Source: Candidatus Minusculum obligatum (lineage in GTDB: Bacteria; Patescibacteriota; Minisyncoccia; Phycocordibacterales; Phycocordibacteraceae). Taken from it: a DNA stretch of 50,959 nt. The stretch lies in the NCBI GenBank assembly GCA_002331145.1, contig DCYT01000001.1:1-50959 (forward strand), read 5' to 3'. Numbering within the stretch: the first letter of the stretch is position 1; every line of letters begins with the position of its first letter. The notes beneath the pieces were generated by a model. The model had not been told where the DNA came from. It did no database searches and was given only the letters and a program-made list of their open reading frames with translations. Of this stretch, positions 437-31,736 are shown piece after piece. The position numbers and the translations under genes were made by a program.

Positions 437-439
437 GTC

Positions 440-2350: not shown

Positions 2351-2364
2351 AAATCGAGTATAAC

Positions 2365-2520: not shown

Positions 2521-2563
2521 CTCTTCTATAATTGATAGTACTCCTATAAAATAGAAATGCAAT

Positions 2564-2851: not shown

Positions 2852-2872
2852 AATACTACGTACAATAGGGAT

Positions 2873-4168
2873 ATGAATTCGCGCGAGATGTTGGTTGTGA
2901 AAGGTCTTGGAGGAAAGAAAACACTTTCGGGCGAAATTACTATTAACGGTGCAAAAAATGCAGTATTGCCACTTATGGCATCTGCAATTCTTTTTAATGG
3001 GAAGGTGCAAATCAAAAAACTTCCAGAGATTCGAGATGTTATTGCAATGCGAGAGTTACTCGCAGGCCTTGGTGCAGAGGTGTCCCAAAAAGGAAATGTA
3101 CTTTCTATAACTCCATCAAAGAAATCAAAAGGAGTGCTAGATGAAGATGTGGCAAAGCGTTTGCGGGCTTCAATTATTTTAACGGGACCTACTCTTGGAA
3201 AATATGGGAAAGTTGTATTTCCGCATCCCGGAGGATGTGTGTTAGGAGCTCGTCCAATTGACCTTTTTCTTTCTGCATATGAGAAGATGGGTGCAACAGT
3301 TGAACACAGTGGAAAGGCGTACATAATTAAGGCTCCACGTGGAGGGCTTAAGGGCGCAAATATTTTCTTTAAAACGATGAGTATGACCGCAACAGAAGCG
3401 CTCATGTTTGCAGCAACACAAGCAAATGGGAAGACTGTGCTTCATAACTGCGCCATGGAGCCGGAGATTGCATTTCTTGCTGACTGTCTAAATCAAGGAG
3501 GTGCAAAAATTGTAGGGGCTGGAACGCCAACAATTACTATTACACCCACAAAGAGCCTAAAGCAGAAGAAAGCATTTCCAGTACTTCCTGATCGTATTGA
3601 GGCAGGAAGCTTCCTTATTTTGGGTGCGCTTCTTGCGAAGAATTTAACTATTAAGAATGTTATTCCAGAACATCTTCAGATTGTTATTGAGCTTCTAAAA
3701 GAATCAGGTGTTCCTATAACAACTACAAAAAATACTATCTCAATAAAGAACAACATAAAACCAAACAGTTCATTTGAACCAGTGTCATTTAGAACTCATG
3801 AGTACCCAGGATTCCCAACAGACCTGCAGGCGCCAATGGTTGTATTTTTAACTCAAACAAAAGGAGAGAGTACTGTGCTTGAAACAGTGTTCGACAATAG
3901 ATTTAATTTTGTACAAGATCTTGTTCGTATGGGAGCAAGAGCAAGTATTTGGAATCCACACCAAATAACGGTGTACGGTCCATCAAAGCTAAAGGCGCGA
4001 CACTTAACAGGTCCTGATATTAGAGCTGGTCTTGCGTACATAATTGCAGCGCTTCTTGCAAAGGGAACAGGAACTATAGATAATGTGCACCTTATTGATC
4101 GAGGATATGCAGATATTGAAGGAAGGTTATCTGCACTCGGTGCAACTGTTGAGCGAAGAGAAGCATGA
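2873..4168 (+). CDS. murA: UDP-N-acetylglucosamine 1-carboxyvinyltransferase
   Basis: 431 aa. Has the INGAKNA N-terminus, the active-site Cys context HPGGCVLGARPID and the C-terminal IDRGY..IE..L..LGA. Confidence 0.95.
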   Translation: MNSREMLVVKGLGGKKTLSGEITINGAKNAVLPLMASAILFNGKVQIKKLPEIRDVIAMRELLAGLGAEVSQKGNVLSITPSKKSKGVLDEDVAKRLRASIILTGPTLGKYGKVVFPHPGGCVLGARPIDLFLSAYEKMGATVEHSGKAYIIKAPRGGLKGANIFFKTMSMTATEALMFAATQANGKTVLHNCAMEPEIAFLADCLNQGGAKIVGAGTPTITITPTKSLKQKKAFPVLPDRIEAGSFLILGALLAKNLTIKNVIPEHLQIVIELLKESGVPITTTKNTISIKNNIKPNSSFEPVSFRTHEYPGFPTDLQAPMVVFLTQTKGESTVLETVFDNRFNFVQDLVRMGARASIWNPHQITVYGPSKLKARHLTGPDIRAGLAYIIAALLAKGTGTIDNVHLIDRGYADIEGRLSALGATVERREA

Positions 4169-8291: not shown

Positions 8292-8726
8292 TCAGACATG
8301 CTCTCGCCAGAGCTTGTCGCTGGTGTTCAGAGCAAGTCTTTGCTCTTTTACACCAAATGAATGAGCTTTGTCCGTGAGAATTTTCCCAATTTCTGCAAAA
8401 CCTTCATCAATCTTCATGGTCAGAAGTAGTTCGCAGATTTCGCAGTAGGCAACAGCGCTTACAGTTCCTTCAATGGCGTTAACCACTGATTCACAGAAAG
8501 GTTTTTTCTCAGATTGATTGCCAAGAATGTTCTCACGAACTGCCTGGGTATTTTCTTCAGTGGGTCGAAGACGAATACTTGCGTCCAGGTAAAGTTTACT
8601 CAGAGCTCTCTGCAATTTCAAAATCTTCGTGGTAGAGAGAAGTTCTCCAAGGATCTCAAGTCCAGGCAACGTATCAACCTTTTGCAGCCGATTGGCGATA
8701 GCGCGCTCAAAAGAAATATTGGTCAT
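8292..8726 (-). CDS. hypothetical protein
   Basis: The 144-aa version starts at MTNISFERAI, with AGGAGA 5 nt upstream. The longer track ORF (to 8912) would overlap the proS start and promoter. Confidence 0.6.
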   Translation of the reverse strand: MTNISFERAIANRLQKVDTLPGLEILGELLSTTKILKLQRALSKLYLDASIRLRPTEENTQAVRENILGNQSEKKPFCESVVNAIEGTVSAVAYCEICELLLTMKIDEGFAEIGKILTDKAHSFGVKEQRLALNTSDKLWREHV

Positions 8727-8805
8727 TTCTATCTCCTGAAAATGTGAAAATCTGTCTTGTAAAATACAATTATATTTACCCATTGTCAATAGACAACAAT
8801 TGTGT

Positions 8806-8834
8806 TTGCCCTTACATACCCTGTCACATATAAT
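8806..8834 (+). promoter_or_regulatory. candidate proS promoter
   Basis: TTGCCC-17 nt-TATAAT. The -10 box ends 8 nt before the proS ATG and there is no SD. Confidence 0.5.
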
Positions 8835-8842
8835 GGATCCTA

Positions 8843-10078
8843 ATGCGACAAAGTGAACTAATTGGAAAGACGCGCAAAGACGCGCCAAAAGACGAAGAAG
8901 CAAAAAATGCACAACTCCTTATTCGTGCAGGGTTTGTACATAAAGAGATGGCAGGAGCTTATACATTTCTCCCTCTAGGATGGAGTGTTGTAAAAAAGAT
9001 TGAGCAGATCATCCGTGAAGAAATGGATGCTGTTGGAGGGCAAGAAATGCACCTGACCGCTCTTCAGAATAAAGCTTCATGGGAAGAAAGTGGAAGGTGG
9101 AGTGATGAAGTATTGGATGTTTGGTTTAAGACACAGCTTAAGGCAGGTGGTGACCTTGGTCTTGCAACAACACATGAAGAACCTCTTACAAATCTTCTAA
9201 CAGATCACATTGCTTCTCATAGAGACCTCCCAACATACGCATACCAAATTCAAACAAAGTTTAGAAACGAGCTCCGAGCCAAGAGCGGACTCCTTCGAGG
9301 CCGAGAGTTTCGAATGAAAGATCTTTATTCTTTTTCAAAAACAGAAGAAGAGCACGAAGCTTTCTATGAAAAAGCAAAGCAGGCGTATAAGAATGTATTT
9401 GATCGTCTTGGTATTGGAGAGCGAACATATTTAACATTTGCGTCAGGTGGATCATTTGCGGAATTCTCTCATGAGTTCCAGATGGTAACTGAGGCGGGTG
9501 AAGATACTATCTATATTGATGAGGAGAAGGGAATTGCAGTAAATGAAGAGGTGTATACCGATGAGGTGCTCGAAAAGCTTGGGATAAAGAAGGAAAATCT
9601 AAAAGAAGCAAAGGCAACTGAAGTTGGAAATATCTTCTCATTAGGAACTCGCTTCTCAGATCCTCTAAAGCTTGTATACAAGGATGAGACAGGGGAACCG
9701 CAGCCTGTTGTTATGGGTTCATATGGAATTGGTTCTTCAAGACTTGTTGGTGCTATTGCAGAAGCACTTTCAGATGATAAGGGGCTTATTTGGCCTAAAG
9801 CTATTTCTCCATACGACATTCATCTAATTCAGTTACAGGATGAGGTAAAAGATGCTGCAGAAGATCTGTATAAAAAATTAGTTGGAAAAGGGTATTCAGT
9901 ACTCTTAGATGACAGAGAGAAGAGTGCGGGAGAGAAGTTTGCTGATTCTGAGTTAATCGGAATAAGTAAGAGAGTTGTTGTGGGGAAGCGAGGAGTAGAG
10001 AATGGAACGTACGAAGTAACGGATAGGATTACGGGAGAAACTGCCGACATGAAAGAGGAGGACGTATGCCAGATATAA
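8843..10078 (+). CDS. proS: prolyl-tRNA synthetase, short form without the INS editing domain
   Basis: 411 aa. Class II motifs (FRNELRAKSGLLRGREF, GSYGIG) and an N-terminal QLLIRAGF. The length is too short to contain the bacterial insertion editing domain. Confidence 0.9.
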   Translation: MRQSELIGKTRKDAPKDEEAKNAQLLIRAGFVHKEMAGAYTFLPLGWSVVKKIEQIIREEMDAVGGQEMHLTALQNKASWEESGRWSDEVLDVWFKTQLKAGGDLGLATTHEEPLTNLLTDHIASHRDLPTYAYQIQTKFRNELRAKSGLLRGREFRMKDLYSFSKTEEEHEAFYEKAKQAYKNVFDRLGIGERTYLTFASGGSFAEFSHEFQMVTEAGEDTIYIDEEKGIAVNEEVYTDEVLEKLGIKKENLKEAKATEVGNIFSLGTRFSDPLKLVYKDETGEPQPVVMGSYGIGSSRLVGAIAEALSDDKGLIWPKAISPYDIHLIQLQDEVKDAAEDLYKKLVGKGYSVLLDDREKSAGEKFADSELIGISKRVVVGKRGVENGTYEVTDRITGETADMKEEDVCQI

Positions 10079-22003: not shown

Positions 22004-22196
22004 AAACGATGGCACGGCTTGGAGTCAAGAAGGACCTTGTCCTTGCGGGCCCTCCAGACTCGAGGAGACCGGTTGGAGGAGTTCTTGTTCCTTCTGGTCG
22101 CTCCGAATTTGACACCAGGATCACCAAACGCCGCTAATCGTTTGTTTTCAAACGGTTCCATAAACGCCACATTGCAGAAAGCAGTGTGGCGTTTTC
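22004..22196 (+). ncRNA. candidate structured RNA with closing helix and terminator, class unknown
   Basis: GC-rich intergenic stretch. Long-range helix AACGAT.GC..GGC.TTGG (22005-22024) pairs with CCAA..GCC.GC..ATCGTT (22123-22142), followed by a terminator at 22164-22196. One stem position is a U-G pair that is only valid on the plus strand. Confidence 0.4.
22164..22196 (+). terminator. intrinsic terminator
   Basis: ACGCCACATTGC-AGAAA-GCAGTGTGGCGT followed by TTTTC. Confidence 0.7.
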
Positions 22197-22234
22197 AAAT
22201 ATAAATTTCCATGGTATATTCCACGACACAAACA

Positions 22235-22309
22235 GGCCCTATCGTCTAGCGGCTAGGACATCGCCCTCTCACGGCGGAAACCGGGGTTCGATTCCCCGTA
22301 GGGTCACCA
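22235..22309 (+). tRNA. tRNA-Glu (anticodon CTC), CCA encoded
   Basis: GGCCCTA acceptor stem, GTCT/GGAC D-stem, anticodon stem UCGCC/GGCGG with loop CUCUCAC, T-arm CGGGG-TTCGATT-CCCCG, then TAGGGTC-A-CCA. Confidence 0.95.
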
Positions 22310-23795
22310 ATTTAGATGTATCAGCACCAGCCTTCTTATTTATCTCGAAAATAAGGGACATTTTAGTGGTTCCAAATTTTGCTCCATCAAAAGTGATTTT
22401 TTCAGGAAATAGCAGTTTTTGGAACCGTAGTCTATGTTCTGGTTGTTTTTCTAAATCTTTCCACGTTTTAGAACTGTCTCTAACAAAATCAAAACAAAAT
22501 GAGAGTGCCTCATCCATATTTAATTCTTCAAATTGCTTTTCTTTTAAAAGAGATTTATTAAGATGTATTCGTTTGTTTATAGATTCTTTTTGCTCTAAAA
22601 ATTCTATATCCTTATAAACTCCAGATCTGTGGAATTCGAATACTTTTTGTCTTTCGTCTTCTAGATTTGAAATATCTCTCCTCACTTTTTCATTTTCTTT
22701 ATCAAGTTTTTTAAAGTTGGATTGCCAGACATCTAATACAACAGCCTTGAAAGCTTCTTCATACTCTTTCTCTTTTGGAGCAACCGTTTCGAGGAAAGAT
22801 ATAAAATTTGCTTCAAACTTTTCTTTAGAGTGAGACTTTGCGTGAGGACAATTTTGTTTCTGGTGGTGGTAGTAAGGATATTTTTTTCCTTTTCTTCCTG
22901 TGGAAGAACTTCCCGTTAAGGTCACCTCGCAATGGTCACATTTAACAAACTTTCGCAAAGGAAACTCAGGGTTTTGTTTTAACCTAGGCCCGTCCCCATA
23001 CTTTCTATGTACTCCAGGCTGACATTTCCAAAATAGATCCTCACTAATAATTGGTTCAAAACTTCCTACAACTTCCATATCAAAAGCCTGTATCAATCCG
23101 TAGTAAATGTGGTTTTTAATTATCTTTTCTATAGATTGAGGATATAGTTTTTTCCCTGAAGATCCCACCAAACCTTTTTTATATAAAAGGTTAGATAATG
23201 ATTTAAAACTATGTACACCTTTCGACCACTCTTCGAATGCCATACGTATGTAAGGGGCTACAGAATCGTCTATAACAAGATTTCCGCCTTTTATTACACG
23301 CTTGTATCCCAAAGGAGCTTTCCATACCCATACGCCTGATTTTACGCGTTCCACCATACCGCCTTTACTGCGTGTGGCTCTAGTACTATTTTCAAACTCG
23401 GCAAAAAGAGCAAGCATTCCCTCTGAAAGCATTCCTACAGGACTATCATCCATATGCTCAGTTACTGATTGCAGACTTGTTCCATATTTTTTTAGAAAAC
23501 TTCTAGCAACAACGTGATCATTCTGATTTCTGGCAAACCTGTCAATCTTATAAACAAGAAAGAAGTCAATGGAATTCTTTTTCTTTGAACAATAACTTAT
23601 AGCTTCTTGAAATTTTGGTCTGTTAGCTGTTTTTGCTGATTCTCCTTCTTCAACAAAACACTTAAGAACCTGTATTCCTTTATGATCAGCATACTCTTTG
23701 CAAATTCTTTCTTGACTGCGTAGACTCGTTCCTTTTACTTGTTCAGCAGAAGACACACGGCAGTAGATAATTCCTGTTTTCTTTTGAGTATCCAT
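22269..23795 (-). CDS. large serine recombinase
   Basis: 508 aa. N-terminal resolvase domain with catalytic Ser (GIIYCRVSSAEQ), a recombinase domain, a zinc-ribbon-like C.HC...C and a C-terminal coiled coil. The last 41 nt of the ORF are antisense to the tRNA-Glu 3' half. Confidence 0.95.
   Translation of the reverse strand: MDTQKKTGIIYCRVSSAEQVKGTSLRSQERICKEYADHKGIQVLKCFVEEGESAKTANRPKFQEAISYCSKKKNSIDFFLVYKIDRFARNQNDHVVARSFLKKYGTSLQSVTEHMDDSPVGMLSEGMLALFAEFENSTRATRSKGGMVERVKSGVWVWKAPLGYKRVIKGGNLVIDDSVAPYIRMAFEEWSKGVHSFKSLSNLLYKKGLVGSSGKKLYPQSIEKIIKNHIYYGLIQAFDMEVVGSFEPIISEDLFWKCQPGVHRKYGDGPRLKQNPEFPLRKFVKCDHCEVTLTGSSSTGRKGKKYPYYHHQKQNCPHAKSHSKEKFEANFISFLETVAPKEKEYEEAFKAVVLDVWQSNFKKLDKENEKVRRDISNLEDERQKVFEFHRSGVYKDIEFLEQKESINKRIHLNKSLLKEKQFEELNMDEALSFCFDFVRDSSKTWKDLEKQPEHRLRFQKLLFPEKITFDGAKFGTTKMSLIFEINKKAGADTSKLVTLRGIEPRFPP
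22301..22314 (+). repeat. left att core copy (GGGTCACCAATTTA)
   Basis: Covers the last 9 nt of tRNA-Glu plus 5 nt. Matches 27102-27115 at 13 of 14 positions. Confidence 0.6.
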
Positions 23796-23798
23796 ATA

Positions 23799-23990
23799 TC
23801 AAACGATAGTATCTTTACTGTTTTTTGTGAATAACCCAAGGTTATCTTTGGAACCATATTTTTTCTCCCAATAGGTATCAAACATGAGTTGAGCCGCTTC
23901 GTAGAATGCATCACGAATAGCCGCAACATCTTTATCAGGAAGACGTTTCAAACTCTTATCTATTTTTCGTAATTTTTCTATCGAGAGCAT
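23799..23990 (-). CDS. hypothetical 63-aa protein co-transcribed with the recombinase
   Basis: The ORF ends 3 nt before the recombinase ATG. Helical, charged sequence (..DKDVAAIRDAFYEAAQLMFDTYWEKKYG..). Confidence 0.55.
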   Translation of the reverse strand: MLSIEKLRKIDKSLKRLPDKDVAAIRDAFYEAAQLMFDTYWEKKYGSKDNLGLFTKNSKDTIV

Positions 23991-24033
23991 ATAAGCAAAA
24001 AGCAGCCATCGATGACTGCCTCTGCTTACTTAA

Positions 24034-24081
24034 GAATTGGTAGCTCAATACACAGTGACTGTGTCATCGAATTACCAATTC
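24034..24081. repeat. nested inverted repeat
   Basis: Outer arms GAATTGGTA (24034-24042) and TACCAATTC (24073-24081) enclose the inner hairpin ACACAG-TGA-CTGTGT. Confidence 0.6.
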
Positions 24082-24433
24082 AATACAAACTTACTATTTA
24101 GATCTAAATTCATTTTTAGAGCGCAAGCTCAAGGTTTTGTCCTATTCTTATCATCACTGACGCAGATGCCTCGTTAGAACACGTAGACTAAGTAGTGTAA
24201 GTATCAATTGGGAGATTAATAAAGATTTCTCTTAAGTTCCATTAGAGAAAGTTTCTATTAACCCTATTAACTGTTTGATATTGTATCAGAGTAGTTACCT
24301 ACCCTAAAAGGGGACAAAAGGTGGATAGAGTTTGATACCTTAACAAATAGGCTTGGAAGGTATAGAATTAGCAAACAATTGAATACGCTCTTTAGGAGCA
24401 AGGCCTAACCCATTTTTGGTATGGCCCAAAATT

Positions 24434-24476
24434 CGCGTTCAACGTAAAAACCCCGTCATCCAGGGCGTTGAACGCG
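24434..24476. repeat. 11-bp perfect inverted repeat
   Basis: CGCGTTCAACG (24434-24444) and CGTTGAACGCG (24466-24476) with a 21-nt loop. It lies about 55 nt upstream of the 24532 ORF and is followed by the tandem AGGATCTT AGGATCTT (24497-24512). Confidence 0.6.
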
Positions 24477-24531
24477 TTGCAGAGGGAAACTTCTGTAGGA
24501 TCTTAGGATCTTCTGGTGGCGGGATTTTTGT

Positions 24532-24870
24532 ATGAAAATAAACTTAGATAAAATTGAGAAAAATCTAGAAGCCTATCAAGCTTTTATTAAAGAAAATACT
24601 ACTAGTGAGCACAGGCAAAAGAGGTGGGGGCTTACGCTAGATAAAGAAGAAAATAGAAAAAAGTTTCCAAGGGAATTTATAGATGAAATAGGTGTTGAGT
24701 TAGATCATGCTCAAATAAAAAGATTCTTCATGATGAGTGACGCAGAAAAATTTCTATGGGCTTATTGGAGTCAAAGAAATATAGCAAGGAAAAGTTTTGT
24801 ATGGGGGATGTATGGTCTAATCTTTTTTATTGTCATCATCCTTATCATCTTTGGCAACCTCTTCTTCTGA
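24532..24870 (+). CDS. hypothetical tail-anchored membrane protein
   Basis: 112 aa. A soluble charged N-terminal part with a single C-terminal TM helix (GMYGLIFFIVIILIIFGNLFF). The last 54 nt overlap the 3' end of the convergent ATPase gene. Confidence 0.5.
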   Translation: MKINLDKIEKNLEAYQAFIKENTTSEHRQKRWGLTLDKEENRKKFPREFIDEIGVELDHAQIKRFFMMSDAEKFLWAYWSQRNIARKSFVWGMYGLIFFIVIILIIFGNLFF

Positions 24871-26916
24871 TTCTTTTCTGGTTAAATCCAAAATTATAGG
24901 CCTATTACTTCCAATCGCTTTACCGTGAACAACAGCATGATACTGCTTTAGTTTTTGTATATTTTTTATAAATTCTGTTCCTGTATAGTTGCTCATAAAC
25001 TCTTTTGTTGTTGTATCAAATGATTGAAGACATATCACGGTGTTGCATTGAGTTAATACAGTTTTTGATACGTTTGCCGATCGTTGGGCGATAACCAAGA
25101 GTCCGACACCGTATTTGCGTCCCTGAAGTGCAATTTGACTCATTCTACTTACAAGTTGCTTGTTGCTTCCATAATCTCCCATTTCGCCAAGAAAATTTGT
25201 TTCTGGAATAATGGTATGAGCTTCTTCAAGAACAATGCAAATTCGTTGATCTTCGTTATCTCTTGCAAGTTGAAATATTTCACCCAGGAAGATTTCTGTA
25301 TATGAAAGGATTGAAGTTGTCCCGGTAAAGCCAGGTAATTCAAACAGGCCAACATTATTGTCTGAGTCTTGCAAGAATGTTTCAATTCGGTTTTTTACTC
25401 TCTTTTTAATTTGGTCTTTGACAGTTGCTATTCCAGACTTGTTTTGAGCATTAGGTGATTTTTTGCTTTCCTCTTCTATATAATTGAATCTTTTTTCAGC
25501 AAAAGTTTTTGACGCATCATCTATAATTTCTACAGGGTTCAGCGAAGTAAGTTTTTCTTTGTATTCTCCTGTAAAATCTATACAGACAACCTTCATTTCT
25601 TTCTCAATTTCTGATATAAGTTCATGAGCAAGAAAAGATTTTCCTGACCCTGTAACTCCAAGTAGGGCAGTGTGGTGTGTTACGGCAGAAATTAAATCAA
25701 TAAAAACAGGTATTTTAATTTTTGGAATGAATCCAAGAGTATGTTCAATACGCCTCTCATCTTTTATGGGTTTTGGGTTATATTTATCGACCTGAGGAAA
25801 TTTAACAAGTTGATTTAGTTGTGGTGTCCATCCGTAAGGTTCAAATGTTCTATCTTTTTCATTGTAAAACCCAAGTTGTTCTGCGTGGGCAAAAATACCT
25901 CTTCTCGATATATTCTGAGCGAGTTCTTCGGTAGAGGTGGTTGCATCTATTATTTGGTAAAGAACCTCCCTCTCTTCTTTTTTGTTGTCCTTCGAATAAG
26001 AAATATCGACAACAACAACATCTCCTTCCTCTAAAGTACCCTCTGTAGAAGGGAACGGTTCAAATATTATTCTGTTAACATTAGAGCCGTCAGAAATTTT
26101 TCCAATAATACTCGAAGCTTTGTTTTTTGCGGCAATTTTAACAGACCGTTGTTTGCCTAAAATAATTTTAGAACCGTTAATGAGTATTGCTTCTGCAATA
26201 ATATCTTTATCAAGCGCCAGTAGATTTGTAATAACAAAATTACGTGTACTATTATTTTTATCCAGAACTTCAATGACAGTTCCTTCTGACAACCTCTCAT
26301 TTAACCTAAGTTTGATTGTAGTTTCACCCTGGATGGCGATAATGCTTCCAACAATACCATCTTCTTTTTCCTCAGAAACAAGATATTTTGAGAAGAAATC
26401 AATTATTTTATGTATCTCTTTTGCAAAGAGGGCAATTACAAAAGCAATTGTTAGTGCAGCAATTGATTCATTAGGGATTGTTTCTGCTGTTGTTAAGAAG
26501 AGTAAGAAGGCGAGAGGATACAGAACTCTAGACGCGCCAGCGCTACCAACAGCTTTTCTGAGAAAGTTAAGAATGTCAGAATCTTTTTCTTGTAGTGCTT
26601 TTAATATAAATGAAAGGATAAGAAGTATAGATACAAGAAGTACAAAAGGAAGCCAAAAATAAAATATTGCTGTACCTATAAATATTTCTGATTGGCTAAG
26701 TAGTAAAAGTAAAACTGCAAAAGTGTTGGCTAAGGCGGTTGCAGGAGAAGTGTAATATTGTTCAATAAAAAATGCCGCTATTATTAGCGGCAGAAATGCT
26801 AGAAAGAAAGTATTTGAAAGCCCAAGCAGAAAAAGACCTGTTGCTACAAAAATAATAGCTATCAAAATACGTAGGAAAATCTTTAAATTTTGTTCTTGAA
26901 TTTCTAGAAACTCCAT
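24817..26916 (-). CDS. membrane-anchored HerA/FtsK-superfamily (DUF87-like) ATPase
   Basis: 699 aa. About 5-6 TM helices in residues 1-175. Beta-rich barrel-like region at about 185-370. Walker A GVTGSGKS (420-427), Walker B ICIVLEEAH (559-567) and the HerA-like LLVIAQRSANVSKTVLTQCNTVICLQ. Acidic C-terminal tail. Confidence 0.85.
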   Translation of the reverse strand: MEFLEIQEQNLKIFLRILIAIIFVATGLFLLGLSNTFFLAFLPLIIAAFFIEQYYTSPATALANTFAVLLLLLSQSEIFIGTAIFYFWLPFVLLVSILLILSFILKALQEKDSDILNFLRKAVGSAGASRVLYPLAFLLFLTTAETIPNESIAALTIAFVIALFAKEIHKIIDFFSKYLVSEEKEDGIVGSIIAIQGETTIKLRLNERLSEGTVIEVLDKNNSTRNFVITNLLALDKDIIAEAILINGSKIILGKQRSVKIAAKNKASSIIGKISDGSNVNRIIFEPFPSTEGTLEEGDVVVVDISYSKDNKKEEREVLYQIIDATTSTEELAQNISRRGIFAHAEQLGFYNEKDRTFEPYGWTPQLNQLVKFPQVDKYNPKPIKDERRIEHTLGFIPKIKIPVFIDLISAVTHHTALLGVTGSGKSFLAHELISEIEKEMKVVCIDFTGEYKEKLTSLNPVEIIDDASKTFAEKRFNYIEEESKKSPNAQNKSGIATVKDQIKKRVKNRIETFLQDSDNNVGLFELPGFTGTTSILSYTEIFLGEIFQLARDNEDQRICIVLEEAHTIIPETNFLGEMGDYGSNKQLVSRMSQIALQGRKYGVGLLVIAQRSANVSKTVLTQCNTVICLQSFDTTTKEFMSNYTGTEFIKNIQKLKQYHAVVHGKAIGSNRPIILDLTRKESEEEVAKDDKDDDNKKD

Positions 26917-27101
26917 ATTGTTTGTTTAGTATGATGTTTTTGGAAAATAAAGGCAAGAAAGCTTTTTCTAATCTAAGTTGGTAGTTAAAATGTGAGTTTG
27001 TTTGAAATGGTGCAGTTTTGTTCTAAATCTTTTTGCTGAAACGTTAAATCTTTCCCAATCTTTCATTTCTTTTATTAATTGGTTCCAATTTCGTCCCACT
27101 T

Positions 27102-27115
27102 GGGTCACAAATTTA
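27102..27115 (+). repeat. right att core copy (GGGTCACAAATTTA)
   Basis: 13/14 match to 22301-22314. It sits where the AT-rich block ends. Confidence 0.6.
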
Positions 27116-27123
27116 TGAAAACA

Positions 27124-27151
27124 GCACGTAGTATTTACTACGTGCGGTTTT
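27124..27151 (+). terminator. intrinsic terminator, probably the original tRNA-Glu terminator displaced by the insertion
   Basis: GCACGTAGTA-TT-TACTACGTGC followed by GGTTTT. There is no plus-strand gene immediately upstream in the present arrangement. Confidence 0.6.
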
Positions 27152-27193
27152 CATTGTATAAAGCTTTTAGAAGTGAAGACTAAGGAGGCGAAT

Positions 27194-27817
27194 ATGTTTG
27201 TATACACTGTCGCTTTCTTTGCGACATTACCGCTACGAGTTGGAATTATTTGGAGAAATTTTCAATGCTGGCGCTTTGGGAAAGTTGCTCGAAAGCAAGA
27301 AGATCGTATCTACGAACTCAGTAAACATGTTCTTAATAGTTTTATCTCGGAAGATAAAACTATTAATTATATTGAATACCACTCACAACTTTCTTTGGGT
27401 TACCCAACAAAAGAAAATGGAGAGCGGTTTTCAGAGATATGTTGGGAAGCACCCATTTGCTTTACAATCTTCCATAATGACAAGCCGCTGGTTGGCATGG
27501 GCTTAGAGTTTCGAGGCTCAGCACTGTGCATATGGCAGCTTCAGGGTGTTCGTGGCGCAAAAGTACCAGAGACCATTCGTAAATGGCCAGCACTTTTTGT
27601 GGAGGGCGCAAAGAAATTTGCGTCAGAAACAAAAGAAATACGTTCAGTTCGAGTTTACGCAGCTGATCAACGTATTTCATACAGGTTTCCAGAAGGAGAT
27701 TTGAGTGAAGCGGATATGTGCAGGCACCAGAGAAATTTACGCCGTCGCTATGATGGCACTGCCAGACAGCAAGGTTTCAAAAAAGTATCAAAAAGGTATT
27801 GGGAGTGGAAAGGGTAA
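27194..27817 (+). CDS. hypothetical protein
   Basis: 207 aa from the ATG at 27194, with AAGGAGG 5 nt upstream. The track ORF uses a GTG at 27173. I recognise no motif. Confidence 0.7.
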   Translation: MFVYTVAFFATLPLRVGIIWRNFQCWRFGKVARKQEDRIYELSKHVLNSFISEDKTINYIEYHSQLSLGYPTKENGERFSEICWEAPICFTIFHNDKPLVGMGLEFRGSALCIWQLQGVRGAKVPETIRKWPALFVEGAKKFASETKEIRSVRVYAADQRISYRFPEGDLSEADMCRHQRNLRRRYDGTARQQGFKKVSKRYWEWKG

Positions 27818-27846
27818 GGACCGCATGTATTTGCGGTCCTTTTTTC
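27817..27846. terminator. bidirectional intrinsic terminator
   Basis: AGGACCGCA-TGTATT-TGCGGTCCT followed by TTTTT, between convergent ORFs. Confidence 0.85.
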
Positions 27847-27855
27847 TGGTCATTG

Positions 27856-28035
27856 TCAGTAACGAACAATGGTTGCGCCGTACACATGAAGAGTTGGCTG
27901 CCTTGCTTCTCGAAAACTTCGATGGAAGGCAGCACTGTCTTCAATTCGCTTGGCGGCAAGCCTAACAAGTTCTGTATTTTGCTCAAGCGTTCTGTCCTGC
28001 GCAGCCTTTTGGAGGCCTTCTCCAATTTTTGCCAT
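27856..28035 (-). CDS. small 59-aa ORF absent from the ORF track
   Basis: The ATG at 28035 is preceded by GAGGAGA 6 nt upstream. Translates to MAKIGEGLQKAAQDRTLEQNTELVRLAAKRIEDSAAFHRSFREARQPTLHVYGATIVRY. The stop lies 10 nt before the shared terminator. Confidence 0.5.
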   Translation of the reverse strand: MAKIGEGLQKAAQDRTLEQNTELVRLAAKRIEDSAAFHRSFREARQPTLHVYGATIVRY

Positions 28036-28081
28036 CTGGTGTCTCCTCTAAATCTTTTCTGATACTACAACAAGAGATAGT

Positions 28082-29053
28082 TTGTTACAATTTCCCCATA
28101 TGATCGCAGGACTTGGAATATGGGGATTTGTACTGGTGATGTCACTAGTAGTTCTTGTAAAAGGTGCAGACTCTTTTATTAACTCTGCAGAGAAGATAGG
28201 GAAGGCATTTAAGCTTTCTCCATTTGTAATTGGAGTATTGCTTGTTGGTATCGGAACCTCACTTCCTGAATTTGCCAGTGGTGTTGCAGCTTTGCTTGCA
28301 GGAAATGTGGAAATTATTGCCGCCAATGCTATTGGATCAAACATAACTAACATTCTGCTTATTGTTGGAATCCTTGCAGTTCTTGCAAAGAAGTTTGTTA
28401 TTAAACAAGATCTTCTGGCATCAGAGCTTTCTTTGTTTGTAGTTTCGACATCTCTTTTCATTGGAGTTGCATTTGATGGGGTCATTACAATTCTTGAGTC
28501 ATCGCTTCTTGCCATTGGATTTATCATCTACCTTTTTTATATTCTTTTTGGAAACGATAAAGATGCTCCAGCAACTGCAAAATACAAAGCAGAGCTTGAG
28601 ACAGGGAAGGTGACAAAAGGAACTATTGTTGCCTTTGTTCTGGGTCTTGGAGGAGTTATTTTAGGGGCACGTTTTCTCATTGAGTCTGTAGTATCCATCT
28701 CAGACATTCTAGGAATTGGAACAGGAGTTATTGCTATTACTATTGTGGCGCTTGGAACTTCATTGCCTGAGTTATTTGTGTCACTTTCTGCATTACGCGG
28801 CGGAAGTACAGAGGTTGCTATTGGAAACATTTTTGGATCAAATGCCTTCAACCTCCTTTTCGCGGTTGGAGTGCCAGGTCTTTTCTCAACACTTCCTCTT
28901 GATCCAAAGACTTTGAGTATTGGAATTCCAATTCTTGCTGTTGCTTCATTTATTTTTGTAATTACAGGTATAGCTCAACGTATTTATAGATGGGAAGGGC
29001 TCATGTTCCTTGTCTACTATGCATTCTTCGTAATAAAAGTTATTGGTTTTTAG
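28082..29053 (+). CDS. Ca2+/Na+ antiporter (CaCA/YrbG family)
   Basis: About 10 TM helices with two alpha-repeat signatures, GTSLPEF and GTSLPEL. The start may instead be the ATG at 28100. Confidence 0.85.
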   Translation: MLQFPHMIAGLGIWGFVLVMSLVVLVKGADSFINSAEKIGKAFKLSPFVIGVLLVGIGTSLPEFASGVAALLAGNVEIIAANAIGSNITNILLIVGILAVLAKKFVIKQDLLASELSLFVVSTSLFIGVAFDGVITILESSLLAIGFIIYLFYILFGNDKDAPATAKYKAELETGKVTKGTIVAFVLGLGGVILGARFLIESVVSISDILGIGTGVIAITIVALGTSLPELFVSLSALRGGSTEVAIGNIFGSNAFNLLFAVGVPGLFSTLPLDPKTLSIGIPILAVASFIFVITGIAQRIYRWEGLMFLVYYAFFVIKVIGF

Positions 29054-29071
29054 TGTGGTACTCTAGAAGAA

Positions 29072-30250
29072 ATGCACATTTTCTCTAAGAACCTCTGGAC
29101 GCTTTTTGGTAGCCGACTCATAACCCATGCAGGGCTCTCTCTGATGGGGGTGTTCCTTCCCACTTTTATTTATCTTGAGTATGGAGGGTCTCTTCAAGTT
29201 GTGGTGTGGGCATTTATTGCAGGATTTGCACTTCATTTCCTCCTAACGCCACTCTCTGCAAAGCTTATTAAGAGTGTGGGGATGAAAAAGCTCATGATTA
29301 TTGCGCTTGTTCCATTTCTTGCAGCTGCCCTTACCGCGCTTGCGTTTTGGGAATACAATCCAACACTGATGCTTATCATCTATATGCTTGCGTGGGCAGG
29401 GTATAGAGCACTGTATTGGGTCCCATATCACGTAGAGGTTGCAGAGTCCTTAGATAGTGAGCACAGAGGAAGGCAGGTTTCTGTTTTTACAAATCTAAGC
29501 GCTGTTGTTTCAGTTATTGCTCCATTTATCGGAGGAGTACTTATTGAGTATTTTGGATTCTCTTGGGTCTTTATTGCAGGAATTGTTTTGGTAGTTATGG
29601 CAGCGGCTCCGCTGTTCTTTATGGAGGAAATACATGAAGAGTATTCATTTAAATATATTGAAAGTTTTAAAGATCTGTTCAAAAAAGAGAAGAGAGGTTT
29701 GTTTTATGCATATGCAGGTGATGGGGCGCAGACGGTAGTGGCACTTGTGTTCTGGCCAATCTTTATTTATCTCATTCTTGATGGAAACTTTGCAGCAGTT
29801 GGAGCAGTGTCTTCTTTGGTAGTGCTTGCGACAATTGTTTTGGCTTCATTTGCAGGAGAGCTTGTCGATCGTATTTCTCGTACGCAAGTAATTATCATCA
29901 GTACCATTATTTACACAACAGGATGGTTCCTTAAAAGTTTTGCAAGCACAGCGCTCCACATCTTCCTCTTTGATGCATATCACAATGCAGGAAAGGCAGT
30001 AAATCGAGTTGCTTTTGATGTAGGAAGCTACACGCACCTTGCAGATAATGGGCACTATGTTGATGAGTACACAGCATTTAAGGAGATGGCGCTCAATCTT
30101 GGGCGAATTGCAATGCTCATGTTTGGTGGATTCCTAGCACTCTTGTTTGGTATAAAAGTTGCTTTCATCCTTGCTGCATTTGCATCTCTTACTATGGTTT
30201 TGGTAAACTCAGCGCTCAAGAAGCATGATACTGCTCGTAGACAAACCTAA
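29072..30250 (+). CDS. MFS-type transporter
   Basis: 392 aa with about 12 predicted TM helices in two halves separated by a charged loop (EEIHEEYSFKYIESFKDLFKKEKR). Confidence 0.65.
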   Translation: MHIFSKNLWTLFGSRLITHAGLSLMGVFLPTFIYLEYGGSLQVVVWAFIAGFALHFLLTPLSAKLIKSVGMKKLMIIALVPFLAAALTALAFWEYNPTLMLIIYMLAWAGYRALYWVPYHVEVAESLDSEHRGRQVSVFTNLSAVVSVIAPFIGGVLIEYFGFSWVFIAGIVLVVMAAAPLFFMEEIHEEYSFKYIESFKDLFKKEKRGLFYAYAGDGAQTVVALVFWPIFIYLILDGNFAAVGAVSSLVVLATIVLASFAGELVDRISRTQVIIISTIIYTTGWFLKSFASTALHIFLFDAYHNAGKAVNRVAFDVGSYTHLADNGHYVDEYTAFKEMALNLGRIAMLMFGGFLALLFGIKVAFILAAFASLTMVLVNSALKKHDTARRQT

Positions 30251-30863
30251 AGGCATTACCTCATTTGATGTTATTCGGAAGCTTCGCAAAGAGCTTAATA
30301 TTCGCAAGATGGGGCATGCTGGAACATTAGATCCGCTTGCAAGTGGTCTTTTAATAATTGCCACAGAAACAGATACAAAAAAACTGGATCAGTTTTTAAA
30401 ACTTCCAAAGACGTATGAAGTTGCAGTTCGAATAGGGGAGAAGCGAAGCACGGGAGATCTAGAGGGAGAAATTTTAGAGAAGGTAGAGGTATCTGATATT
30501 AGTGAAGAGAAAGTAAAGGAGGTGCTTGATGGTTTTGTAAAAGTGCACACTCTTACTGTCCCAATGTATTCAGCGATTAAAGTAGATGGGAAACCTTTGT
30601 ATTGGTATGCAAGGAATGGAGTAAAGGTAGAGGCTCCGGAGAAAGATATGGAGGTAACAGACGTGAAGCTTTTAAATATAGAAAAGGGTGAAGATTTTGT
30701 AACGATTAATTTAGAACTCGCTGTTACGAGTGGTACGTACATAAGAGCTCTTGCAGAAAAGTTTGGAGAGTTACTTGGGTATCCTGCAACAACAGCAGAG
30801 CTAAGAAGGGCTGTAATAGGGGAGTATAAAGTGGAGGATGCAAAGAAAATAGCCGCAGATTAA
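30225..30863 (+). CDS. truB: tRNA pseudouridine(55) synthase
   Basis: ILLVDKPKGITSFDV and the catalytic Asp motif GHAGTLDPLASGLL. Confidence 0.95.
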   Translation: MILLVDKPKGITSFDVIRKLRKELNIRKMGHAGTLDPLASGLLIIATETDTKKLDQFLKLPKTYEVAVRIGEKRSTGDLEGEILEKVEVSDISEEKVKEVLDGFVKVHTLTVPMYSAIKVDGKPLYWYARNGVKVEAPEKDMEVTDVKLLNIEKGEDFVTINLELAVTSGTYIRALAEKFGELLGYPATTAELRRAVIGEYKVEDAKKIAAD

Positions 30864-30874
30864 ATAATCTACGG

Positions 30875-31438
30875 CTAGAAAAGTCCTGGCTGCTCGTCAC
30901 CTTTCACTGCAGCGGCCTTATGACCTTTTATCTCCTTGCGTCTACGTGTAGAGGTTGCTTTCTGGGCATTGATTCGTCGAATCATTGAAAGGAATTCACC
31001 TTGCTGCACATTGTGCTGCAAAGTTCCTTCCTCACGTCTCTTTGCAAGAAAGTCACTTGCAAAGTCGTCCTGCTCTCCACCACGGGGTCGCTTAGAAGAT
31101 CTTTGTTCACCCTCCACTTTTATCCGAAGAGAAATTCCTTTTCCGTACTGCCTGATACAGTTTTGGGCAAGTCTAAAAATATATTCTTCACGATGCGTTT
31201 CAAGCCGTATTGGTGTGGCGAAATAACGCTTCGTCTTTCTTTTCGGTTGCTTTGGAACGTGCTCAAAGTATTCAAGCTCACCGATAATATCATCAGCAAG
31301 CCTTTCAATACTTTCTGTTCCGTATACACGCATATTCAGAACTAATTTCTGAATGTAGATGCGAAGAGCGTGTGGGTCTTTCGGGAAGCTGCCTTTTTTA
31401 ATGGCAGCGTCCACAAAGTCTTGTAGTTCGCGTGCCAT
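30875..31438 (-). CDS. hypothetical basic protein
   Basis: 187 aa from MARELQDF, with GGAGA 5 nt upstream. Lys/Arg-rich C-terminal half. No recognised motif. Confidence 0.55.
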   Translation of the reverse strand: MARELQDFVDAAIKKGSFPKDPHALRIYIQKLVLNMRVYGTESIERLADDIIGELEYFEHVPKQPKRKTKRYFATPIRLETHREEYIFRLAQNCIRQYGKGISLRIKVEGEQRSSKRPRGGEQDDFASDFLAKRREEGTLQHNVQQGEFLSMIRRINAQKATSTRRRKEIKGHKAAAVKGDEQPGLF

Positions 31439-31466
31439 GTTGGTCTCCATAGTAGGGAACAACGCA

Positions 31467-31670
31467 CTATGCAGTGCGCTGTCTGGGGCGAATTACCCCT
31501 CGTTCACGAAGTTTTGCAAGCACTTTGCGCTTGAGGTTATTAACATCCGGCTTGTGCCGAATACCAACCCCCTCAATTGCCTTGATTGCAGCCAGTGGCC
31601 AACCAACATGCTTTGCAAGTTTTTCTTTGCGCCGAATTGTTGCATCGGCAAGAGCATCAATGTTGGCCAA
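31467..31670 (-). CDS. hypothetical small protein (TTG start proposed)
   Basis: GGGAGG lies 5 nt upstream of the TTG at 31670, downstream of a near-consensus promoter. The longer track ORF (to 31736) would start inside the -35 region. Confidence 0.45.
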   Translation of the reverse strand: MANIDALADATIRRKEKLAKHVGWPLAAIKAIEGVGIRHKPDVNNLKRKVLAKLRERGVIRPRQRTA

Positions 31671-31706
31671 AATAGCCTCCCATTTCTGTATTGAACGTCT
31701 GCGTAT

Positions 31707-31736
31707 ATTATACCACCTAAATGACCAGCAGGTCAA
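31707..31736 (-). promoter_or_regulatory. near-consensus sigma70-type promoter
   Basis: The minus strand reads TTGACC-18 nt-TATAAT, immediately after the yqeY-like stop. Confidence 0.55.

What the first reader, a model, noticed from the sequence alone, without database searches (positions are those of the whole stretch)
24817..26916. A membrane-anchored HerA/FtsK-superfamily ATPase is the only large cargo of a serine-recombinase element
Seen: the 699-aa protein has about 5-6 N-terminal TM helices. These are followed by a beta-rich barrel-like region. The ATPase core has Walker A GVTGSGKS, Walker B ICIVLEEAH and the HerA-like QRSANVS..VLTQCNT block. No NurA, Sir2, DUF4297, relaxase, coupling protein or other T4SS gene is nearby.

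Established knowledge: HerA/FtsK-superfamily hexamers pump double-stranded DNA. Examples are FtsK/SpoIIIE, viral packaging ATPases, and the single TraB translocase that suffices for conjugation of actinomycete integrative elements. HerA also occurs in two-gene defence systems, but there it has a partner effector.

Inference: two readings are possible.
(a) An ultra-minimal integrative element that moves double-stranded DNA through a membrane pore made by this one protein. This would be attractive for an episymbiotic small-genome bacterium.
(b) A one- or two-gene membrane-coupled defence or exclusion module.

I do not recognise either as a described system.
Basis: partly seen in the sequence, partly recalled or inferred. 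Interest (0 to 1): 0.8.

Follow-up and report, generated by a model that had tools for sequence, protein, structure and literature searches.

The report
Membrane-anchored HerA defence-island gene
A 4.8-kb mobile island in a tiny marine Patescibacteria genome carries a DNA-motor ATPase (HerA type) fused to its own six-helix membrane domain; the same fusion sits among restriction and other anti-phage genes in hundreds of bacterial species, so it is most likely an uncharacterised one-gene immunity module, not a DNA-transfer pore.

Summary
ORF 24817..26916(-) encodes a 699-aa protein with six hydrophobic N-terminal helices, a beta-barrel and a HerA ATPase core with the quoted motifs.

An island-free contig from the same population fixes the element at exactly 4,801 bp. 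It sits in the 3' end of tRNA-Glu and is flanked by GGGTCAC[C/A]AATTTA. It holds a large serine recombinase, a 63-aa ORF, a LOOT RNA, a 112-aa membrane ORF and the ATPase.

Sequence and fold place the protein in the HerA clade. Its nearest relatives are the HerAs of the SIR2-HerA and DUF4297-HerA anti-phage systems, not FtsK, TraB, VirB4 or coupling proteins.

At least 567 relatives were found among species-representative genomes of many phyla. In all 71 full-length copies among the 80 fetched loci plus the window, the membrane module is conserved. Restriction-modification and other defence genes are 8-fold enriched next to these genes. Eight loci place the gene between type I R-M genes. No partner gene is conserved.

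Phage records and viral contigs almost lack the gene. Related Patescibacteria elements carry terminase genes, with the ATPase in their variable cargo.

Reading (b), a membrane-coupled defence or exclusion module, is supported. Reading (a), a one-protein DNA-transfer element, is not. The mechanism is inferred, not shown.

The parts
22235..22309 (+). tRNA-Glu (anticodon CTC), the integration target. In the island-bearing allele its last bases, including the encoded CCA, are supplied by the island.
   Evidence: ARAGORN; Rfam tRNA, 58.8 bits. In the empty-site allele the tRNA ends ...GTAGGGTCACAAATTT, with no encoded CCA.
22301..22314 (.). attL core, GGGTCACCAATTTA.
   Evidence: The island-free contig L086 is identical to the window up to 22307 and diverges after it. 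The 14-nt segment of L086 (positions 173-186) matches both island ends.
22308..27108 (.). The integrated island, 4,801 bp and low in GC. It is present or absent among members of one marine Patescibacteria population.
   Evidence: Sister genomes with 80-83% identical MurF keep the flanking synteny without the island.
22269..23795 (-). Large serine recombinase, 508 aa. Its 3' end overlaps the tRNA 3' end.
   Evidence: Pfam Resolvase 5e-32, Recombinase 5e-9, Zn_ribbon_recom 5e-4. NCBIfam CcrB-like 3e-32, far below the cutoff.
23799..23990 (-). 63-aa ORF directly upstream of the recombinase. Function unknown; a directionality-factor role is only a guess.
   Evidence: ORF list. Called as a gene in public assemblies. 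No Pfam, PADLOC, NCBIfam or PHROG hit.
24402..24511 (+). LOOT RNA (Rfam RF03000), full-length match.
   Evidence: 71 bits against a gathering score of 46.4, E 2e-12. A promoter-like site lies at 24340-24368(+).
24532..24870 (+). 112-aa ORF with a C-terminal hydrophobic helix. It starts 20 nt after LOOT and converges on the ATPase gene, overlapping its 3' end by 54 nt.
   Evidence: The overlap covers only the non-conserved acidic tail of the ATPase.
24817..26916 (-). TM-HerA, 699 aa: a membrane-anchored HerA-clade ATPase and the subject of the finding.
   Evidence: Pfam DUF87 (HerA central domain) 52.5 bits against a cutoff of 23.2. PADLOC HerA 3e-29. Foldseek top hits are all HerA, E 1.5e-17 and weaker.
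26377..26916 (-). Residues 1-180: six TM helices plus two amphipathic helices. The family motif FIEPYYTSPxNVITN (here FIEQYYTSPATALAN) lies between TM2 and TM3.
   Evidence: A search with the N-terminal 389 aa hits almost only proteins of about 600-760 aa, which is the length of this architecture.
25801..26355 (-). Residues 188-372: beta-barrel in the position of the HerA HAS barrel.
   Evidence: AF2 secondary structure. Foldseek alignments to HerA chains span 456-594 columns, more than the roughly 290-residue ATPase core. That they therefore include the barrel is my inference.
24886..25749 (-). Residues 390-677: RecA-like HerA ATPase core with a helical insertion. Walker A is at 420-427, Walker B at 559-567, LQGRKYG at 597-603 and QR..QCN at 611-625.
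27102..27115 (.). attR core, GGGTCACAAATTTA.
   Evidence: A bidirectional terminator-like hairpin follows on the host side; the scan places its stem at 27124-27145 and the inverted repeat spans 27115-27154.

Best explanation
Window 22308-27108 is a 4.8-kb integrative island. A large serine recombinase moved it into the 3' end of tRNA-Glu of a marine Patescibacteria bacterium with a genome of about 0.58 Mb.

Its one large cargo gene encodes a HerA-clade hexameric DNA-motor ATPase that is fused at its N-terminus to a six-helix membrane domain. I call this fusion TM-HerA. The protein belongs to a widespread family that moves horizontally and lives in defence islands. It has no conserved partner gene.

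Most likely it is a self-contained anti-phage or anti-plasmid module. In the SIR2-HerA and DUF4297-HerA systems, a separate effector sits on the barrel face of the HerA ring. Here the membrane domain occupies that N-terminal position in the same polypeptide.

Proposed mechanism (inferred, not shown):
1. The protein forms a ring at the inner membrane.
2. The ATPase engages foreign DNA or a product of infection.
3. Nucleotide-driven movement of the ring is passed to the 36-helix membrane collar.
4. The collar then either permeabilises the membrane (abortive infection) or obstructs DNA entry.

Shown here: gene, domains, clade, island borders and genomic context. Inferred: hexamer, trigger and outcome.
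For: Island:
- Exact empty site and 14-nt att core.
- GC drop inside the island.
- Recombinase domains.
- Sister genomes lack the island.

Clade:
- Pfam DUF87 scores above its cutoff.
- A family profile against PDB sequences gives DUF4297-HerA 9c1m 8.7e-31, SIR2-HerA 8wiv 3.5e-29, 8xau 5.6e-27 and archaeal HerA 1e-19 to 2e-21. VirB4 scores 4.8e-5 on the P-loop only, TrwB scores 2.9, and no FtsK chain is listed.
- The top 50 Foldseek PDB hits are all HerA.

Family:
- At least 567 relatives in 185,579 species-representative genomes, across Bacteroidota, many Patescibacteria, Proteobacteria, Campylobacterota, Elusimicrobia, Ignavibacteria, Firmicutes and Actinobacteria.
- Cross-phylum identities reach 78%.
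- The gene has lower GC than its distal flanks in 59 of 62 loci, median -6.4 points, p 3e-11.
- The TM module is conserved in 71 of 71 full-length members.
- Catalytic residues are invariant.

Context:
- Neighbour clusters are HsdM, HsdS, HsdR, N6/N4 and C5 DNA methyltransferases, Fic, RhuM, GmrSD-like, SLFN/AlbA_2 and integrases.
- Genes of these clusters make up 46 of 286 genes within two positions, against 13 of 564 at six or more positions away (odds ratio 8.1, p 6e-13).
- A type I R-M gene is the immediate neighbour in 16 of 80 loci.
- Eight loci have the gene between type I genes on the same strand. In several of these (L011, L040, L046) start and stop codons overlap.
- An annotated Arcobacter plasmid shows hsdS-hsdM-rhuM-hsdS-hyp-SLATT-DUF87-SLFN-hsdR.
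- No partner is shared among adjacent genes.

Not a phage gene: 0 of 50,697 phage records and 1 of 2.9 million viral contigs.
Against: - No member of this family has been tested, so defence rests on guilt by association.
- About half of the 80 loci show no recognisable defence neighbour in my cluster-based tally.
- No PADLOC model covers the whole protein. That fits novelty, but it gives no positive support.
- The window's island holds no R-M system, so any dependence on R-M would leave this copy an orphan.
- Nothing in the sequence separates membrane permeabilisation from DNA exclusion.
- Hexamer formation and the pore are not modelled.
- DUF2779 sits tightly next to the gene in four loci, so some subtypes may be two-gene systems.
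Confidence: 0.6

Rival explanations
1. Active DNA exclusion. The membrane ring acts as a true translocase that pushes incoming phage or plasmid DNA back out, or holds it at the membrane. This would be superinfection exclusion without cell death.
For: HerA and FtsK-superfamily rings translocate dsDNA (established knowledge). The ATPase sits directly under a membrane collar. In related Patescibacteria elements the gene lies in the same cargo region as an Ltp-like superinfection-exclusion protein, PHROG 4980 at 1.7e-58. The predicted periplasmic loops are very short, which suits a channel or plug better than an external sensor.
Against: I know of no precedent for a defence pump that expels DNA. 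No pore is modelled. The HerA-based defence systems solved so far use HerA to load or activate an effector, going by the PDB titles and my own knowledge. Genes embedded in type I R-M operons are classically suicide back-ups of the PrrC type (established knowledge).
Confidence: 0.2
2. Accessory motor of restriction-modification systems. TM-HerA works only together with a type I or other modification-based system, much as DndH/DptH, TdpA or Mad8 ATPases work within their systems. The window's copy would then be an orphan hitch-hiker.
For: A type I R-M gene is the immediate neighbour in 16 of 80 loci, and in eight loci the gene lies between type I genes. The ATPase core matches PADLOC mad8 over its whole length at 3.7e-19. 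It also matches TdpA weakly at 6e-5 and DptH at 0.08.
Against: Most loci, including the window's island and the closest homolog's contig L083, have no R-M gene beside it. Genes embedded in type I operons (RhuM, Fic, SLFN, SLATT) are usually independent modules. All catalytic residues and the TM module stay intact in solitary copies.
Confidence: 0.1
3. One reading: a minimal integrative element that transfers its own dsDNA between cells through a pore made by this one protein, in the manner of TraB in actinomycete elements.
For: The architecture of membrane anchor plus ring ATPase resembles FtsK, SpoIIIE and TraB. The gene is the only large cargo of a 4.8-kb integrase island. The closest homolog, at 41% identity, also lies 2.2 kb from a serine recombinase. 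The host is an episymbiont-type lineage.
Against: Pfam FtsK_SpoIIIE scores 20.8 bits, below its cutoff of 24, and no FtsK chain is listed in the profile search. The protein has no C-terminal winged-helix domain; it ends after the ATPase. The island has no clt-like repeat array and no recognisable replication gene. Only 8 of 80 loci have a serine recombinase within 10 kb. Many copies are fixed inside R-M operons of non-mobile context. Related elements carry TerS/TerL, which points to capsid-borne transfer.
Confidence: 0.05
4. A housekeeping membrane or DNA-segregation function of the host.
For: HerA and FtsK relatives serve in repair and chromosome segregation (established knowledge).
Against: The gene is absent from an island-free member of the same population and from sister genomes. 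It has low GC, a patchy cross-phylum distribution with up to 78% identity between phyla, and no conserved housekeeping neighbours.
Confidence: 0.02

Closest known systems
SIR2-HerA (Nezha) and DUF4297-HerA anti-phage systems
   Same: Same HerA clade. They are the best profile hits (9c1m 8.7e-31, 8wiv 3.5e-29, 8xau 5.6e-27) and top Foldseek hits. The layout of HAS-type barrel plus RecA-like core with a helical insertion is shared, and so is residence in defence islands.
   Different: Those are two-gene systems with a separate soluble effector, either a NADase or a nuclease. Here there is no partner gene, and a six-helix membrane domain is fused N-terminal to the barrel. NCBIfam HerA_antiphage scores 69 bits against a cutoff of 800, so this is a separate family.
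Archaeal HerA-NurA end-resection helicase
   Same: It shares the fold and is the best single Foldseek hit (4d2i, 1.5e-17). The ATPase motifs are shared.
   Different: There is no NurA, Mre11 or Rad50 neighbour. The protein is membrane-anchored, bacterial, and borne on mobile islands.
FtsK / SpoIIIE / Streptomyces TraB
   Same: The overall logic is the same: N-terminal TM helices followed by a ring ATPase of the same superfamily.
   Different: It belongs to a different clade. The Pfam hit is below its cutoff and no FtsK chain is listed among the PDB hits. It has a HAS-type barrel in place of the linker and alpha domain. There is no gamma or winged-helix DNA-recognition domain and no KOPS-, SRS- or clt-like target.
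Type IV coupling proteins and VirB4 (TrwB, VirD4)
   Same: They combine a membrane anchor with a hexameric P-loop ATPase. Pfam TrwB_AAD_bind scores 32 bits.
   Different: The match covers only 46 residues around the P-loop, 410-455. The profile gives TrwB an E-value of 2.9 and VirB4 4.8e-5 on the P-loop only. There is no relaxase or T4SS gene.
Defence genes embedded in type I R-M operons (PrrC/RloC, RhuM, Fic, SLFN, SLATT)
   Same: The genomic habit is the same: the gene is inserted between hsdS or hsdM and hsdR, with overlapping or very closely spaced start and stop codons.
   Different: The protein family is unrelated. Whether the R-M complex silences it, as in the PrrC paradigm, is unknown.
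Membrane effectors of abortive-infection systems (CBASS and Pycsar TM effectors, RexB, Kiwa KwaA)
   Same: A membrane module is coupled to a cytoplasmic sensor or motor within a defence context. This is a functional analogy only.
   Different: No sequence relationship was detected. Here the membrane module is fused to a DNA motor, not to a nucleotide-signal receptor.

Membership tests
HerA clade of the FtsK-HerA superfamily | Match to the HerA central / DUF87 ATPase domain above the curated threshold. | tested here: met
   PF01935 scores 52.5 bits against a cutoff of 23.2. The family profile matches HerA chains at 1e-19 to 9e-31.
HerA clade of the FtsK-HerA superfamily | N-terminal HAS-type beta-barrel followed by a RecA-like core with a helical insertion. 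| tested here: met
   The AF2 model has strands at 188-372 and then an alpha/beta core with helices at 467-553. Foldseek aligns 456-594 columns to HerA chains, with TM-scores normalised to the target of 0.42-0.75.
HerA clade of the FtsK-HerA superfamily | Intact Walker A and B motifs and conserved arginines. | tested here: met
   K426, E564, E565, R600 and R612 are invariant in 71 homologs.
HerA clade of the FtsK-HerA superfamily | Hexameric ring with a central DNA channel. | not testable with these tools
   Only a monomer could be predicted.
SIR2-HerA / DUF4297-HerA defence systems | An adjacent SIR2 or DUF4297 effector gene. | tested here: not met
   None in the island. Neither appears among the 25 commonest neighbour families on each side, taken from the two nearest genes upstream and downstream in the 80 loci.
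SIR2-HerA / DUF4297-HerA defence systems | Equivalog-level match to the anti-phage HerA models. | tested here: not met
   NF042943 scores 69 bits against a cutoff of 800, and NF042944 scores 61 against 850.
HerA-NurA repair system | An adjacent NurA nuclease, with or without Mre11/Rad50. | tested here: not met
   No such domain on island proteins or among the top neighbour families.
FtsK/SpoIIIE/TraB translocases | FtsK_SpoIIIE motor domain above threshold. | tested here: not met
   PF01580 scores 20.8 bits, below its cutoff of 24. No FtsK chain is among the 57 PDB sequences listed at E up to 10.
FtsK/SpoIIIE/TraB translocases | C-terminal winged-helix (gamma) domain and a cognate repeated DNA target. 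| tested here: not met
   The protein ends about 20 residues after the last ATPase strand, with an acidic tail. The island has no repeat array.
Type IV coupling protein / VirB4 | Full-length match to the TrwB/VirD4 or VirB4 domain, and linkage to a relaxase or T4SS. | tested here: not met
   Only residues 410-455 match. TIGR00929 scores 23 bits against a cutoff of 643. No T4SS or relaxase genes are present.
Large-serine-recombinase integrative island | A Resolvase + Recombinase + zinc-ribbon recombinase at one end. | tested here: met
Large-serine-recombinase integrative island | Defined attL and attR, with an empty attB in related genomes. | tested here: met
   L086 joins window 22307 directly to 27109 across the 14-nt core. 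Sister genomes are also empty at this site.
Large-serine-recombinase integrative island | Excision or integration activity. | not testable with these tools
   The presence/absence polymorphism at 97-99.5% flank identity implies recent movement. This is inference.
Known single-gene membrane NTPase defence genes (Tmn and others in PADLOC-DB 2.0) | Match to a PADLOC model other than generic HerA. | tested here: not met
   The hits are HerA models and mad8, plus a chance-level ThsB match at E 0.029, and all are partial. The best HerA model covers residues 546-667.

The most novel reading that the evidence does not exclude
TM-HerA is a one-polypeptide immune machine in which a membrane-embedded ring of 36 helices is driven by a HerA DNA motor. 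It would act at the point of DNA entry, either expelling or jamming incoming phage or plasmid DNA, or opening a lethal pore when the motor loads onto foreign DNA. That would be a new mode of immunity carried by hundreds of species, including genome-reduced Patescibacteria. A smaller novel reading is that LOOT RNA is the leader of the accessory module of a family of serine-integrase, terminase-bearing Patescibacteria elements.
Probability: 0.2. Interest if true: 0.85.

Novelty: new variant of a known kind. Interest (0 to 1): 0.6.

Why it matters
HerA-based immunity is known only as two-gene systems with soluble effectors. A widespread family has replaced the effector with a fused membrane domain. 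That offers a compact, single-gene test case for how a ring DNA motor is coupled to a membrane output. It would also add a candidate system to defence catalogues: it is missed as a unit by PADLOC-DB 2.0 and has no specific NCBIfam model.

It also shows that ultra-small Patescibacteria genomes of about 0.58 Mb still acquire defence cargo on 5-kb serine-integrase islands that come and go within one population.

The side observation gives the orphan, metagenome-only LOOT RNA its first host lineage and genetic context in this analysis.

Tried and rejected
- Conserved partner gene. blastp clustering of 1,316 neighbour ORFs, and a separate comparison of the tightly adjacent same-strand genes, found none. 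The same-strand genes of about 220 aa downstream are mutually unrelated.
- tRNA linkage as a family trait. Only 6 of 80 loci have a tRNA within 5 kb.
- Phage origin. There was no hit in 50,697 phage records and one in IMG/VR. BFVD fold hits cover only the ATPase core of packaging ATPases.
- Island right end. The repeat finder missed the att core because the seeds were too short. At first I read 27077-27111 as a decayed tRNA remnant. The empty-site contig showed that the true shared core is only 14 nt.
- LOOT by other routes. A sequence-only nhmmer model of LOOT found nothing beyond its training set. A MAFFT alignment of four LOOT copies was too poor to build a covariance model.
- Literature. 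Searches for a membrane-anchored or transmembrane HerA, for DUF87 with phage defence, and for MADS mad8 found no description of this fusion. This shows absence only in the held library.
- TM domain fold. The membrane domain alone could not be modelled with an alignment under the tool's input rules, so I ran no fold search on it.
Full report
**1. The observation**

The ORF at 24817..26916(-) is real, 699 aa long, and called as a gene in public Tara Oceans assemblies.

Hydropathy gives five strong hydrophobic segments and one weaker one within residues 13-168. The AlphaFold2 model was built on 71 homologs and has pLDDT 85.3 and pTM 0.70. It shows six long helices in that region plus two amphipathic ones, then strands from 188 to 372, then an alpha/beta ATPase from about 390 to 677.

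The quoted motifs are present, and their key residues are invariant across the family. The membrane region is not an artefact. It aligns across phyla and has its own motif, FIEPYYTSPxNVITN. All 71 full-length relatives examined have 4-6 hydrophobic segments in the first 230 residues and none later. A search of 1.84 billion representative proteins with only the N-terminal 389 residues returned 177 hits. Nearly all are 600-760 aa long, which is the length of this architecture.

**2. The element**

tRNA-Glu(CTC) lies at 22235-22309. It is overlapped by the 3' end of a 508-aa large serine recombinase with Resolvase, Recombinase and zinc-ribbon domains. GC falls from about 0.42 to 0.33-0.36 between 22 and 27 kb.

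A metagenome scan with the 214-aa protein encoded just right of the island returned one contig, L086 (CESG01063855.1). Its first 186 bases match window 22129-22314 at 99.5%. Bases 173-3935 match window 27102-30864 at 97%. So an island-free allele exists in the same population.

- The insert is exactly 4,801 bp.
- attL is GGGTCACCAATTTA at 22301-22314.
- attR is GGGTCACAAATTTA at 27102-27115.
- The crossover lies within GGGTCAC.

Sister genomes keep the murF...Na/Ca-exchanger synteny without the island. One of them is a complete 578,798-bp Patescibacteria chromosome whose MurF is 80% identical.

The island contents are:
- the recombinase;
- a 63-aa ORF;
- a full-length LOOT RNA (RF03000, 71 bits);
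- a 112-aa ORF with a C-terminal hydrophobic helix that starts 20 nt after LOOT;
- the ATPase gene.

The description "only large cargo" is therefore correct, but the ATPase is not the only cargo.

**3. What the protein is**

Pfam places it in DUF87, the HerA central domain, above threshold. The TrwB and FtsK hits are confined to the P-loop or fall below threshold.

PADLOC and NCBIfam hit only generic HerA models, partially and far below equivalog cutoffs. PADLOC also matches mad8 over the whole ATPase core.

A profile of 71 homologs against PDB sequences ranks as follows:

| Target | E-value |
|---|---|
| DUF4297-HerA (9c1m) | 8.7e-31 |
| SIR2-HerA (8wiv) | 3.5e-29 |
| 8xau | 5.6e-27 |
| Archaeal HerA (9x1l, 4d2i) | 2e-21, 1e-19 |
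| VirB4 (P-loop only) | 4.8e-5 |
| TrwB | 2.9 |
| FtsK | not listed |

The top 50 Foldseek PDB matches are all HerA chains. Their alignments of 456-594 columns are longer than the ATPase core, so they take in the barrel. It is a HerA with a fused membrane domain.

**4. Where the family lives**

At least 567 relatives occur in 185,579 species-representative genomes. They span Bacteroidota, many Patescibacteria lineages, Gamma-, Beta- and Alphaproteobacteria, Campylobacterota, Elusimicrobia, Ignavibacteria, Omnitrophota, Bdellovibrionota, Firmicutes and Actinobacteria. Identities between phyla reach 78%. The gene has lower GC than its distal flanks in 59 of 62 loci.

I called ORFs in the 80 fetched loci and clustered them. 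The recurrent neighbours, confirmed by Pfam and PADLOC, are:
- HsdM, HsdS and HsdR;
- N6/N4 and C5 DNA methyltransferases;
- MmeI, Eco57I and Mrr-type enzymes, and GmrSD;
- Fic/SoFic, RhuM and SLFN/AlbA_2;
- DUF2779;
- serine and tyrosine recombinases.

Genes of the defence clusters are 8-fold enriched within two positions compared with six or more positions away (46/286 against 13/564, p 6e-13). A type I R-M gene is the immediate neighbour in 16 of 80 loci. Eight loci have TM-HerA between type I genes on one strand, and in several of them the start and stop codons overlap.

An annotated Arcobacter plasmid shows the same arrangement beside RhuM, SLATT and SLFN genes. A Bradyrhizobium plasmid copy abuts an "abortive infection family protein".

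No partner gene is conserved. Phage records lack the gene, and IMG/VR has one hit.

**5. Recombinase link**

Eight of the 80 loci have a large serine recombinase of the same cluster within 10 kb, as do the window and the closest homolog's contig. These cases are concentrated in Patescibacteria.

- In L083 the recombinase overlaps the 3' end of a tmRNA gene.
- In L039 and L046 it overlaps the 3' end of a tRNA gene, as in the window.
- L004 and L038 are larger versions with TerS, TerL and ParB-methyltransferase genes. TM-HerA lies in their variable cargo, next to GmrSD-like, DUF2779, R-M or superinfection-exclusion genes.

The window's island therefore looks like a minimal member of a family of prophage- or satellite-like elements that carry defence cargo. 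It does not look like an element that moves by means of the ATPase.

**6. Mechanism**

Shown:
- a catalytically intact HerA ring-ATPase fold;
- a conserved six-helix N-terminal membrane module directly before the barrel;
- no partner gene;
- a defence-island habitat;
- mobility of the island.

Inferred: in the solved SIR2-HerA and DUF4297-HerA complexes the effector sits on the barrel side of the ring. Here the membrane module takes that N-terminal place. I therefore propose a ring at the inner membrane whose ATP-driven engagement with foreign DNA is passed to a 36-helix collar.

My estimates, which are judgements and not measurements:
- Some defence or exclusion role: about 0.6-0.65.
- Membrane permeabilisation (abortive infection): about 0.35.
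- Blocking or expelling incoming DNA: about 0.2.
- Obligate accessory of R-M systems: about 0.1.

**7. Known or new**

The ingredients are known: HerA in defence, TM effectors, genes embedded in type I R-M operons, and serine-integrase islands. I did not find the fusion as a described system in PADLOC-DB 2.0, in NCBIfam, or in the searchable literature. Source names for family members are only "ATP-binding protein" or "DUF87 domain-containing protein". I rate it a new variant of a known kind, predicted but untested.

**8. Side finding**

I saw five LOOT RNAs: in the window, L083, L004, L038 and IMG/VR contig L094.

- All five lie 0.2-5.5 kb from a large serine recombinase.
- Three lie in elements with TerS/TerL.
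- Each is followed within 20-60 nt by a same-strand ORF. In four of the five this ORF is a small membrane-anchored protein.

Rfam lists LOOT as a metagenome-based sRNA. These contexts suggest instead that it is a leader of the accessory module of Patescibacteria integrative elements.

Noticed in passing
window 24402-24511 (+); also L083 4095-4210(-), L004 5514-5640(+), L038 17182-17303(-), L094 6190-6308(-): There are full-length LOOT RNA (Rfam RF03000) matches of 71-85 bits, which Rfam treats as a metagenome-only sRNA. All five sit in elements with a large serine recombinase within 0.2-5.5 kb, and three of those elements also carry TerS/TerL. Each is followed 20-60 nt later by a same-strand ORF, usually a small membrane-anchored protein. 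This suggests a cis leader of the accessory module of Patescibacteria prophage-like elements. No LOOT was found in 14 other TM-HerA loci or in 14 other viral contigs of the same TerL family.
   Followed up: partly
window 24532-24870 (+): A 112-aa ORF converges on the ATPase gene and overlaps it by 54 nt. Its C-terminal hydrophobic helix is encoded antisense to the non-conserved acidic tail of the ATPase. One of the two overlapping ends could therefore be a by-product of the other. No family hit was found.
   Followed up: partly
L004 8359-9825, L020 6077-7579, L045 8289-9758, L056 (split ORFs, 8505-9974): A DUF2779 protein of about 490-500 aa lies tightly next to TM-HerA on the same strand, with spacing of -4 to 10 nt. 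This occurs in four loci from Patescibacteria and Bacteroidota and may mark a two-gene subtype.
   Followed up: no
L083 114-508 with 405-2066; L039 1674-1745 with 1707-3185; L046 1543-1614 with 1577-3163: Serine recombinase genes of the same cluster overlap the 3' end of a tmRNA gene (L083) or of tRNA genes (L039, L046), as in the window. This is a recurring integration style in which the element resupplies the RNA's 3' end.
   Followed up: partly
L094 4423-5478 (+): In this IMG/VR element a reverse transcriptase (RVT_1, 8.5e-24) lies in the cargo region about 0.7 kb beyond LOOT, after a 249-aa membrane-anchored ORF. In the window the cargo in that region is TM-HerA. The cargo slot therefore varies between elements.
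   Followed up: no
window about 30864-31695: There is a second length polymorphism against the island-free contig L086: about 830 bp in the window against about 400 bp in L086. It spans the small ORFs 30875-31462(-) and 31467-31736(-).
   Followed up: no
window 27115-27154: A 19-nt perfect-stem inverted repeat (95% complementary) lies just outside attR and scores as a terminator on both strands. It is present, with two substitutions, in the island-free allele too, so it belongs to the host and follows tRNA-Glu.
   Followed up: yes
L085 (Arcobacter plasmid CP146529.1) 586-14427: A single type I R-M operon holds four embedded accessory genes: RhuM, SLATT, the DUF87 TM-HerA relative and an SLFN/AlbA-type protein. 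It is a compact example of stacked defence genes inside one R-M unit.
   Followed up: no
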